Shown here: positions 13,613 to 14,995 of the stretch, piece by piece
How positions within the stretch are numbered: the first letter of the stretch is position 1
Layout of the letters: each line of letters starts with the position of its first letter
From: Chiloscyllium plagiosum
Taxonomy: Eukaryota
Assembly: GCF_004010195.1 (NCBI RefSeq)
Contig: NC_057753.1
Location: 11,674,509-11,719,767, forward strand
Length of the DNA: 45,259 nucleotides
Reading direction: 5' to 3'
Notes under the pieces: generated by a model
Database searches by the model: none
Told to the model about the DNA's origin: nothing
Seen by the model: the letters and a program-made list of their open reading frames with translations, nothing else
Position numbers and translations under genes: made by a program

Positions 13613-14995
13613 CTACTTCTTGCTGGAAGCCGGGTAATCTGCCGGCATCGGGCGTTTGCAGTGTCGCTGGTGCGCCCGCAGGTTGGCGAGCTGGGTGAAG
13701 CCCGCACCGCAGGCGGGGCAGGCGAAGGGCCGCTCGCCGGTGTGGACCCGCCGGTGCCGCAGCAGGCTGAAGGACTTGGTGAAGCGTTTGCCGCAGGCCG
13801 GGCAGGCGAAGGGCCGCTCGCCGGTGTGGACCCGCCGGTGGGCCGTCAGGTCGGAGGCCTGGCGGAACCGCTTGCCGCAGGCGGCGCAGCCGAAGGGCCG
13901 CTCCTCGGTGTGGATCCGCTGGTGCCGCTGGAGGCTGGTGGGCCCGGTGAAGCCCTTGCTGCAGACGGGGCAGGCGAAGGGCCGTTCGCCGGCGTGCGCC
14001 CGCTGGTGCTCAGCCAGGCTGGCCGCATGCCGGAACTTCTTGCCGCAGCGGCCGCAGGCCAGCCGCTTCTCGGCGTGGGCCTGCAGGTGTGAGCGCAGGC
14101 TGGACGACCAGGAGAAGCCCTTGCCGCACGCCAGGCAGGTGAACGGCCGCTCGCCGGTGTGGACCCGGCGGTGGACGTTGAGGTCGGAGGAGGACCGGAA
14201 CCACTTGCCGCACACGGGGCAGCTGAAGGGCCTCTCCTCGGTGTGCGTCCGCTGGTGGGAGAGCAGGCACGTTGACATGGTGAAGCCCTTGCCACACAGC
14301 GAGCAGGTGAAGGGCTTCTCCCCGGTGTGGACCCGCCGGTGGGTGTCCAGCAGCGACGGGTAGCAGAAGGCCTTGCCGCAGTCCTGGCACTTCCACGGTT
14401 TCTCCCGAGCGCCGGGCGCCGCGTGGACCCGCTGGTGGTGCTCCAGCAGCGACGGGTAGCAGAAGGTCTTGCCGCAGTCCTGGCACTTCCACCGCTTCTC
14501 CCTGGAGCCGGGCGCCGCGTGGACCCGCCGGTGGCTCTCCAGCCGGCACGGGTAGTTGAAGCCTTTGCCGCAGTCGCCGCACTTCCAGGGCTTGTCCGCC
14601 GCCCCGGGCCCATCGTGGACCCGCCGGTGAATCTCCAGCCAGGACGGGTACTCGAAGGCCTTGCCGCAGTCGCCGCACTTCCACGGCTTCTCTCCGTGCC
14701 CGGCGTGGACCCGCCGGTGGTTGTCCAGCCGGTAGCTGTGACCGAAGACCTTGCCGCAGTCCTCGCACTTCCAGGGCTTCTCCCGGGGCGGGGCATGGAC
14801 GCGCTGGTGGTTCCGCAGCAGGGACGGGTAGCTGAACCCCTTGCCGCAGTCCCCGCACGTCCAGGGCTTGTCGCCGGCTGCGGGTTTGCCGTGGACGCGT
14901 TGGTGGTTCCTCAGCAGCGACGGGTAATTGAAGCCCTTCCCGCAGTCCCCGCACTTCCACGGCCTCTCCATTGAAGCCTCGCCTGCTCGGGGCAT
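13613..14995 (-). CDS. C2H2 zinc-finger protein, 15 fingers (last is C2HC-like), no KRAB/SCAN/BTB domain
   Basis: Intact 460-aa ORF with CxxC-x12-HxxxH repeats and TGEKP/TGERP linkers in fingers 7-15. The paralog-conserved Met (MERPWKC) is at 14971. Coding-exon acceptor ttttgcag at 15255. Confidence 0.93.
   Translation of the reverse strand: [460 protein letters not shown]

What the first reader, a model, noticed from the sequence alone, without database searches (positions are those of the whole stretch)
14325..14971. Stereotyped N-terminal 'WKC..YPS' finger amplified sevenfold with long non-canonical linkers
Seen: the three best-preserved ZNF paralogs all start with nearly the same finger: [20 protein letters not shown] (14971), [20 protein letters not shown] (42367) and [19 protein letters not shown] (29703). 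Their later fingers vary in the recognition helix. In the 15-finger gene this W-K/T-C finger occurs seven times, six with Y-P at the helix start. The copies are joined by 7-9-aa Gly/Pro/Ala linkers ([50 protein letters not shown]), after which mostly canonical TGEKP-type linkers resume. Established: tandem DNA reading normally depends on the 5-aa TGEKP linker, and large vertebrate ZNF families usually carry an N-terminal effector such as KRAB, which is absent here. Inference: the invariant first finger may be a lineage-specific protein-interaction or effector module that functionally replaces KRAB in cartilaginous-fish ZNF clusters, and this paralog may be a multivalent version of it.
Basis: partly seen in the sequence, partly recalled or inferred. 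Interest (0 to 1): 0.8.

Follow-up and report, generated by a model that had tools for sequence, protein, structure and literature searches.

The report
Shark-specific lead zinc finger, copied sevenfold
Hundreds of shark and ray zinc-finger genes begin with one distinctive zinc finger that likely docks a partner protein instead of reading DNA, and this gene carries seven tandem, likely partly redundant copies of it, which offers a testable candidate for how these animals run a large gene-regulator family without the KRAB silencing domain.

Summary
Observation confirmed and enlarged. The minus-strand ORF has 15 C2H2 fingers; fingers 1-7 are W-x-C fingers joined by 9,7,7,9,9,9-aa linkers. This finger is a distinct class: 462 exact matches in the genome; first or second finger in 49 of 62 paralogs picked by ordinary fingers; present in five named shark and ray genera plus an Amblyraja model, in 1 of 4114 fingers of other animals. 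It is not invariant: W, K, D, P+1, S+2, E+5 are under purifying selection (pN 0.07, pS 0.83) while base-reading positions -1/+3/+6 drift (pN 0.53, pS 0.55). That pattern likely marks a protein-docking face; no partner or repression is shown. The seven-copy block grew from a two-copy ancestor still visible in a sister gene (L032) that has the same kind of 9-aa linker and a matching DNA-reading tail. The copies are eroding (E+5 in 3 of 7 versus 74 of 78), so 'multivalent effector' is weaker than 'redundant copies'. The 29703 paralog is a frameshifted pseudogene. Not found in the papers searched or in earlier scan notes.

The parts
14325..14971 (-). Block of seven W-class C2H2 fingers with 9,7,7,9,9,9-aa Gly/Ala/Pro linkers; repeat unit 96 nt (units 1, 2, 5, 6, 7) or 90 nt (units 3, 4); most alike pairs 6/7 (93%), 4/5 (88%), 1/2 (87%)
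13658..14324 (-). Eight ordinary fingers (8-15) with canonical linkers; recognition residues of fingers 10-15 match sister paralog L032 at 17 of 24 positions; likely DNA-reading array
13613..14995 (-). Coding sequence in one exon, 452 aa from Met 14971 or 460 aa from Met 14995; GC3 0.95
15089..15091 (-). In-frame TGA upstream of both Met codons, inside the same exon: an exon spliced in at the 15255 acceptor cannot add an in-frame domain
15255..15275 (-). Pyrimidine tract and AG acceptor (AG at 15256-15255); a 1445-base contig of run X1 spans 13811-15255 and ends exactly here; the run X15 contig runs on to 15558
   Evidence: RNA status of the runs is a guess
42367..43290 (+). Paralog with one W-class finger first and nine ordinary fingers
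29703..30502 (+). Frameshifted ZNF pseudogene that begins with a W-class finger

Best explanation
This gene carries seven tandem copies of a special C2H2 finger that heads hundreds of shark and ray zinc-finger genes and that likely docks a partner protein on the helix face turned away from the bases, followed by eight ordinary fingers that likely read DNA. Shown: the finger is a separate sequence class (W and K before the first Cys, D between the cysteines, P+1, S+2, E+5, mostly R+8), sits only at the front of arrays, keeps these residues while synonymous sites are near saturation, and is poor in base-reading residues at -1 and +6. Shown: the block is a tandem repeat of a 32-codon linker-plus-finger unit, and a sister gene (L032) has two copies, the same type of 9-aa linker and a collinear tail. 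Inferred: the finger recruits a shared cofactor (or another family member) to whatever site the tail binds, the job that KRAB, FiNZ or ZAD do in other lineages; the block grew from two copies to seven by serial unequal crossing-over; the long linkers would take the copies out of the DNA groove; only some copies (4 and 6 keep the full signature, 5 and 7 nearly) likely still bind well, so any avidity gain would be modest and the rest are likely redundant and drifting. The partner and the direction of the effect (repression or not) are unknown.
For: Position: Trp finger is finger 1 in 45 of 62 and finger 2 in 10 of 62 ORFs chosen by similarity to ordinary fingers 12-14, 1 of 62 at finger 3, 0 of 458 at finger 4 or later; in a second sample chosen by the motif, 0 of 168 at finger 4 or later; in ten fused shark gene models 15 of 15 lie at block position 1-2. 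Coherence, non-circular: of 120 Trp-defined fingers 107 have P+1 and 111 E+5, against 34 and 13 of 1094 others. Selection: over 78 class fingers pN 0.17, pS 0.63; signature columns pN 0.074, pS 0.83; columns -1/+3/+6 pN 0.53, pS 0.55; in 46 close paralog pairs pN/pS 0.107/0.415 versus 0.138/0.302 for the next two fingers. Base-reading residue (R,K,N,Q,H,D,E) at -1 in 2.5% versus 80%, at +6 in 9% versus 34%. Range: Chiloscyllium, Scyliorhinus, Mobula, Heterodontus, Carcharodon and Amblyraja; 0 of 1377 and 1 of 2737 fingers of non-chondrichthyan proteins. Precedent: the N-terminal C2H2 finger of Drosophila CLAMP binds MSL2 with the largest NMR shifts at +5, +8, +9, +12 (bioRxiv 10.1101/2022.02.16.480628, section read); Kipferl finger 4 binds the Rhino chromodomain (PMC11245307, passages). 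History: L032 matches 17 of 24 recognition residues, next best 10 of 24 among 87 genes. Erosion: E+5 in 3 of 7 copies versus 74 of 78 (p 0.001); copies average 16.6 of 23 identical to the sister's finger, unrelated family fingers 17.4.
Against: No binding, partner or repression was measured. The class finger is joined to the next ordinary finger by a 5-aa linker in 76 of 76 cases and keeps the Lys and His that usually contact the backbone, unlike CLAMP's isolated finger. P+1/S+2 also occur in fingers of the crystallised KRAB protein ZFP568, +3 is as often a base-reading residue as in other fingers (62% versus 60%), and Tyr at -1 is the commonest residue (50% here, most Heterodontus copies). 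13 of 62 sampled ORFs have no Trp finger (about four of them carry a Trp-less variant and two are cut by gaps). The full-signature count in the block (2 of 7 versus 44 of 78) is not significant (p 0.24). pS is inflated by GC3 differences between paralogs (0.45-0.99) and deflated inside this gene, and the pairs are not independent. No orthologue of the seven-copy gene was found in protein collections, so its age rests on partial contigs of one related organism.
Confidence: 0.5

Rival explanations
1. The finger is a nucleic-acid anchor or cap, not a protein dock: it lies at the end of the array on DNA (or RNA), contacts the backbone or a methyl group through Tyr-1/Pro+1/Ser+2, and raises affinity or sets register; Trp and Glu stabilise the end finger or pack it on a neighbour. 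The seven copies with long linkers would then touch spaced sites or add non-specific affinity.
For: Canonical 5-aa linker to the array in 76 of 76; Lys, His+7 and Arg+9 kept; net charge still positive (+1.7 versus +2.3); PS at +1/+2 in ZFP568 fingers; Trp-bearing tandem fingers with longer linkers pack on each other in the tCWCH2 motif (PMC2837044, abstract); ordinary beta-beta-alpha model.
Against: -1/+3/+6 evolve at pN about equal to pS, base-reading residues are nearly absent at -1, and an acidic residue at +5 and Asp between the cysteines are what is fixed; a generic affinity cap would not need a residue set found in 1 of 4114 fingers of other animals.
Confidence: 0.22
2. As the first reader proposed in full: the finger is a KRAB-like repressor-recruiting module and the seven-copy block is a selected, fully multivalent version that concentrates the cofactor.
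For: All family-level evidence above; KRAB family not matched in this genome (no positive control) and reported lost in cartilaginous fishes (PMC8455134, passage); TRIM28 reported in elephant shark (PMC8292531, passage); ORF intact with 5 synonymous and 2 non-synonymous differences in runs X1 and X15; 2-3 copies arose repeatedly (16 of 116 genes); four of six linkers keep the ancestral 9-aa length.
Against: E+5 lost or changed in 4 of 7 copies; signature columns pN 0.19 among copies versus 0.074 in the family; in organism C the listed differences are 10 non-synonymous to 3 synonymous codons in the block, including a Trp and a core Leu, against 1 to 4 in the tail (p 0.047; only 19 of about 45 differences were listed).
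Confidence: 0.15
3. The finger is a protein-contact module but not a chromatin effector: it serves import, turnover or folding of the protein (an importin site, degron or chaperone site at the N terminus); the seven copies tune abundance or location.
For: Always at or next to the N terminus; Met six residues before the first Cys in 39 of 73 genes with a class finger first; fingers that bind importin are cited in the CLAMP paper (passage).
Against: Retained as second finger behind another stereotyped finger in 11 of 116 genes, so it does not need a free N terminus; nothing here points to such a partner.
Confidence: 0.08
4. No special function: the finger is simply the inherited 5' end of a recently amplified or gene-converted family, and the block is a neutral tandem repeat.
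For: Linkers look like relics of the gene start; copies are eroding; pseudogenes carry the finger too.
Against: Synonymous sites of the finger are more, not less, diverged than in other fingers (pS 0.63 versus 0.56; all four Pro and four Ser codons used); the residue set is shared by sharks and rays; the upstream finger was often lost while this one was kept.
Confidence: 0.05

Closest known systems
KRAB zinc-finger proteins of tetrapods, lungfish and coelacanth
   Same: Very large, clustered, birth-and-death family of tandem C2H2 genes with a shared N-terminal part and freely varying base-reading residues.
   Different: No KRAB match; the shared part is itself a C2H2 finger inside the finger exon, not a domain on an upstream exon; no TRIM28 link shown.
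FiNZ-ZNF family of cyprinid fishes (PMC10547256, passages read)
   Same: Lineage-specific KRAB-less family of several hundred genes defined by a short conserved N-terminal sequence of unknown partner.
   Different: FiNZ is a 28-aa Glu-rich non-finger sequence on its own upstream exon in cyprinids; here a zinc finger in the same exon, in elasmobranchs; that paper's main text has no occurrence of shark, cartilaginous, chondrichth or elasmobranch.
Protein-binding C2H2 fingers: CLAMP N-terminal finger (MSL2), Kipferl finger 4 (Rhino)
   Same: Classical fold, atypical residues at base-reading positions, conserved residues on the +5/+8 helix face (CLAMP).
   Different: Those are single genes with shown partners; CLAMP's finger stands apart from its array; no sequence relationship was tested; here a family-wide finger joined by a canonical linker, partner unknown.
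Tandem CWCH2 motif of Zic/Gli/Glis (PMC2837044, abstract read)
   Same: Trp-bearing tandem fingers with longer linkers.
   Different: There the Trp lies between the two cysteines; here it precedes the first Cys, and most genes have a single copy.
Paralog L032 (G000:C45 near 8.41 Mb) and the two-copy, 9-aa-linker subfamily (L007, L049, L063, L092)
   Same: Two class fingers joined by a 9-aa linker; L032's tail is collinear with this gene's tail.
   Different: Seven copies instead of two, one tail finger fewer, GC3 0.95 instead of 0.50.

Membership tests
Classical C2H2 poly-zinc-finger protein | Tandem C-x2-C-x12-H-x3-H units, beta-beta-alpha fold | tested here: met
   15 units; PF00096 266 bits; single class finger modelled at pLDDT 85 and matching C2H2 structures at TM about 0.8, weak E-values
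KRAB-ZNF | N-terminal KRAB domain | tested here: not met
   No PF01352 in the ORF; in-frame stop at 15091-15089 inside the exon; no PF01352 match among 65 candidates genome-wide, but that search had no positive control
KRAB-ZNF | Repression through TRIM28 | not testable with these tools
   No assay; TRIM28 was not searched in this genome
FiNZ-ZNF | Glu-rich 28-aa domain on an upstream coding exon | tested here: not met
   Frame closed between acceptor and first finger in this gene and in 27 of 31 paralogs where a candidate acceptor was found, none found in 58; no FiNZ profile was run
Tandem CWCH2 motif | Trp between the two cysteines in two adjacent fingers | tested here: not met
   Trp precedes the first Cys
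FOG-type CCHC interaction finger | Cys as fourth zinc ligand (recalled) | tested here: not met
   All seven copies end in His
Protein-binding C2H2 finger (CLAMP type), as a way of working | Atypical residues at base-reading positions | tested here: met
   2.5% base-reading residues at -1, 9% at +6; +3 is ordinary
Protein-binding C2H2 finger (CLAMP type), as a way of working | Conserved residues on the +5/+8/+9 helix face | tested here: met
   E+5 94%, R+8 73%, R+9 94% versus L 50%, Q 71%, R 86% in other fingers
Protein-binding C2H2 finger (CLAMP type), as a way of working | Separated from the DNA-reading array | tested here: inconclusive
   Not in single-copy genes (5-aa linker in 76 of 76); copies 1-6 of this gene are separated by long linkers
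Protein-binding C2H2 finger (CLAMP type), as a way of working | A demonstrated protein partner | not testable with these tools
   No partner known

The most novel reading that the evidence does not exclude
Sharks and rays built their own KRAB-equivalent out of a zinc finger: one re-purposed C2H2 finger at the head of more than 400 genes recruits a shared chromatin cofactor for silencing of transposons and genes, and this gene is a selected multivalent hub that holds several cofactor molecules at once.
Probability: 0.2. Interest if true: 0.85.

Novelty: new variant of a known kind. Interest (0 to 1): 0.58.

Why it matters
How large KRAB-less zinc-finger families act is an open question (the FiNZ paper leaves its cofactor open), and cartilaginous fishes are the outgroup to all bony vertebrates. 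A 23-residue, lineage-restricted finger with fixed non-base-reading residues, present at the head of hundreds of genes, is a ready bait for pull-downs and tethering, with natural one-, two-, three- and seven-copy versions as a dose series. If it recruits a repressor, it is a further independent route to a KRAB-like system and shows an effector arising from the array's own repeat unit. Even if not, it marks true gene starts and splits the fused 900-2000-aa public gene models of shark zinc-finger clusters.

Tried and rejected
Complex prediction of two copies of the class finger with zinc: no verdict, score 0.01, alignment not used; not evidence either way. Single-sequence fold of fingers 1-8: pLDDT 41, unusable. 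Orthologue searches: region 1-220 against the protein collection gave only generic non-shark arrays at 37-53% identity in the 120 listed of 3042; a 41-aa region gave just 3 candidates; profile searches were swamped by giant arrays and none of the 132 new proteins among the best 150 of 13703 had adjacent class fingers; exact look-up of five forms found none. These blanks do not show absence. Atlas search with a stored homologue gave only generic C2H2 clusters. Sequencing runs: no RNA holder listed on record; raw-read run X21 laid no reads, no test; the upstream exon was not located, and fingers 1-2 of organism C were not resolved. Paper search for the motif letters was drowned by a fish genus name (176 papers, the 10 listed had no occurrence of the two specific motifs), so it is inconclusive. 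Gene conversion or recent amplification as the cause of the finger's uniformity was rejected. tCWCH2, KRAB, FiNZ and FOG membership rejected (see tests). Earlier scan notes: three look-ups, nothing bearing on this. Holocephalans were not sampled.

Full report
The observation. The minus strand holds one open frame from 15088 to 13613 with 15 C2H2 fingers. Fingers 1-7 have Trp two residues before the first Cys, six have Tyr-Pro at helix positions -1/+1, and they are joined by linkers of 9, 7, 7, 9, 9 and 9 residues exactly as quoted; from finger 7 on the linkers are canonical apart from one of four residues. The paralog at 42367 starts with the same finger. The one at 29703 does too, but it is a pseudogene: an extra base at 29747-29751 shifts the frame inside that finger and more breaks follow. 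Pfam finds only zinc-finger families above cut-off.

The gene looks alive and has no upstream domain. A TGA at 15091-15089 closes the frame 5' of the two possible start codons (14995, 14971), and a pyrimidine tract with AG lies at 15256-15255. A 1445-base contig of run X1 covers 13811-15255 and stops on that AG; a contig of run X15 covers 13812-15558 without a break; both are more than 99% identical to the window. The runs are only guessed to be RNA, though flanking bins have zero depth. Their listed differences inside the ORF are five synonymous and two non-synonymous. So the product is 452-460 aa of fingers only. The upstream exon was not found.

The finger is a family-wide class. The window lies at G000:C44:11.67-11.72 Mb in a 3.56-Gb genome with zinc-finger clusters on C44 and C45; the named homologues make the organism a shark (inference). 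The exact DNA pattern for W-K-C-x-D-C-G-K-x-F matches 462 times, the reversed control 0 times; some matches are pseudogenes or second copies, so this is not a gene count. To avoid picking genes by the finger itself I searched with ordinary fingers 12-14 and fetched 70 loci (the 30 returned plus 40 of the further listed places on large contigs). Of the 62 ORFs kept from them (four or more fingers, 5' end inside the locus, duplicates removed), 49 have a Trp finger in position 1 or 2; counts by position are 45, 10, 1, 0, 0 of 62 and 0 of 334 beyond. The sample still leans to relatives of this gene. A second sample of 40 of the first 100 listed motif matches gave 26 ORFs with four or more fingers, with class fingers only at positions 1-3 and 0 of 168 later; the other loci were short or broken. 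The features travel together: among 1214 fingers of 116 genes, Trp fingers have P+1 in 107 of 120 and E+5 in 111 of 120, other fingers in 34 and 13 of 1094.

What is conserved. In 78 class fingers, one per gene: W 93%, K 85%, D 87%, P+1 88%, S+2 94%, E+5 94%, R+8 73%; position -2 is free, -1 is Y 50/S 17/V 10/F 8, +3 is A/Q/R/V/E/L, +6 is T/I. Pairwise Nei-Gojobori counts from my script give pN 0.17 and pS 0.63 over the finger (next finger 0.25 and 0.56), 0.074 and 0.83 at the six signature columns, and 0.53 and 0.55 at -1/+3/+6. Four of the six signature columns were used to define the class, so I repeated the test by position alone: finger 1 has non-structural identity 0.45 against 0.37 for finger 3 (87 genes, bootstrap difference +0.02 to +0.15), and in 46 close pairs the class finger has lower pN and higher pS than the next two fingers. 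All four Pro and four Ser codons are in use, so recent amplification or conversion does not explain the uniformity. Caveats: pairs are not independent, and GC3 runs from 0.45 to 0.99 among paralogs. Base-reading residues occupy -1 in 2.5% of Trp fingers against 80% of others, and +6 in 9% against 34%; +3 does not differ.

Range. The class occurs in named proteins of Chiloscyllium, Scyliorhinus and Mobula (the last two with Tyr for Trp, as second finger), in nine Heterodontus models (15 fingers, all at position 1-2 of a finger block; a Pristiophorus model had none), and in Carcharodon and Amblyraja models. It is 0 of 1377 fingers in the 120 non-chondrichthyan hits and 1 of 2737 in the 110, a turtle. 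Chimaeras were not sampled.

How the block arose. Long linkers are tied to doubled class fingers: 9 residues at 5 of 13 such junctions in paralogs, against three 6-residue linkers among 865 other junctions. Three of those five linkers end in M-E-K/R-P, the usual gene start (Met six residues before the first Cys in 39 of 73 genes), so the linker is best read as a copied piece of the 5' end. One of the five, L032, is the sister of this gene: best BLAST score for the tail and 17 of 24 recognition residues shared in register over fingers 10-15, next best 10 of 24 among 87 genes. Its linker AGPGSMERP resembles DGPGAADKP and AAPGSREKR. The repeat unit here is 96 or 90 bases, with closest pairs 6/7, 4/5 and 1/2. 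So the block grew from two copies to seven by serial duplication (inference), and the tail kept its recognition code across a shift of GC3 from 0.50 to 0.95, which argues that the tail reads DNA.

Are the copies kept in working order? Only partly. They hold 5, 4, 3, 6, 5, 6 and 5 of six signature residues; E+5 is present in 3 of 7 against 74 of 78 (p 0.001), while the count of complete signatures, 2 of 7 against 44 of 78, is not significant. They are on average a little less like the sister's finger (16.6 of 23) than unrelated family fingers are (17.4). Contig pieces of organism C, about 95% identical over 13974-14764, differ by 10 non-synonymous and 3 synonymous codons in the block and 1 and 4 in the tail (p 0.047), but only 19 of about 45 differences were listed and pieces could be laid on the wrong repeat. 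All seven keep their zinc ligands. Relaxed or diversifying selection on redundant copies fits better than a strictly maintained heptavalent array.

Mechanism. A finger whose fixed residues are W, K, D, P+1, S+2, E+5 and R+8, and whose base-reading positions drift, most likely presents a surface to a protein. In CLAMP the N-terminal finger binds MSL2 with the largest shifts at +5, +8, +9 and +12 and a mutational effect at +1 and +8 (bioRxiv 10.1101/2022.02.16.480628; passages and one section read); Kipferl uses its fourth finger to bind an HP1 protein (PMC11245307, passages). These are analogies. Against: the canonical linker to the array in 76 of 76 genes, kept backbone contacts, frequent Tyr at -1, and PS in ZFP568 fingers. 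The modelled finger is an ordinary beta-beta-alpha fold. I put the best explanation at 0.5, a nucleic-acid anchor at 0.22, the full multivalent-repressor reading at 0.15, an import or turnover signal at 0.08 and no function at 0.05.

Comparison and novelty. It works like the shared N-terminal modules of KRAB, FiNZ or ZAD families only by inference, and is a member of none: no KRAB match (KRAB loss in cartilaginous fishes is noted in PMC8455134, passage; TRIM28 is reported in elephant shark in PMC8292531, passage), no upstream coding exon as in FiNZ genes (PMC10547256, passages; PMC11603059, passages), and Trp in a different place from tCWCH2 (PMC2837044, abstract). Ten paper searches listed no description of this finger; the library lacks most subscription papers, one search was inconclusive, and I read no supplements, where domain surveys such as that of PMC10547256 could mention it. 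The proteins are in public annotation under generic names. Verdict: real; a new variant of a known kind; the family-wide finger is the interesting part, the seven-copy gene a useful extreme case.

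Noticed in passing
L030, L070, L071, L086, L103, L109, L110, L116, L138; P0121, P0122, P0130, P0243: A second stereotyped finger (helix S-S-G-L-S-R/K-H-K, leader M-E-G-K-S-T-like) precedes the class finger in 11 of 116 genes (one of the 11 is itself a degenerate class finger) and in other sharks and a ray; decayed remnants of it lie upstream of many genes that start at M-E-K-P. 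The ancestral head may be a two-finger module, with a new ATG in the linker.
   Followed up: partly
window 2985-3479 and 5479-5910 (+): Exons of an interferon regulatory factor gene (PF10401, E 8.5e-32 and 1.1e-07); a synteny anchor for finding orthologues.
   Followed up: partly
window about 24300-23880 (-): A fourth, heavily decayed zinc-finger gene with stops and frameshifts.
   Followed up: no
window 19681-19691 (+) and 40395-40405 (-): Two AAGATGGCGGC motifs (0 expected in 100 shuffles) in GC-rich stretches; YY1-type promoter motif by recall; possible promoters of the neighbouring zinc-finger genes.
   Followed up: no
L001 versus L032 and all loci: GC3 of paralogs spans 0.45 to 0.99; this gene is 0.95 and its sister 0.50.
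   Followed up: no
P0124, P0142, P0144, P0186, P0189, P0243, P0244, P0274, P0283, P0331: Public shark and skate gene models of 850-2000 aa look like fusions of neighbouring zinc-finger genes; the class finger marks the start of many internal blocks.
   Followed up: partly
L030, L139: Rare internal class fingers, each behind a copy of the upstream finger or a decayed stretch, suggesting duplication of the whole gene head.
   Followed up: no
window 43204-43290 (+): The 42367 paralog starts an eleventh finger and then leaves the finger frame: a frameshift or assembly error near its end.
   Followed up: no
window 1607-1981, 26164-26658, 34350-34835: Fragments that read like LINE reverse-transcriptase ends (label recalled, not tested).
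   Followed up: no
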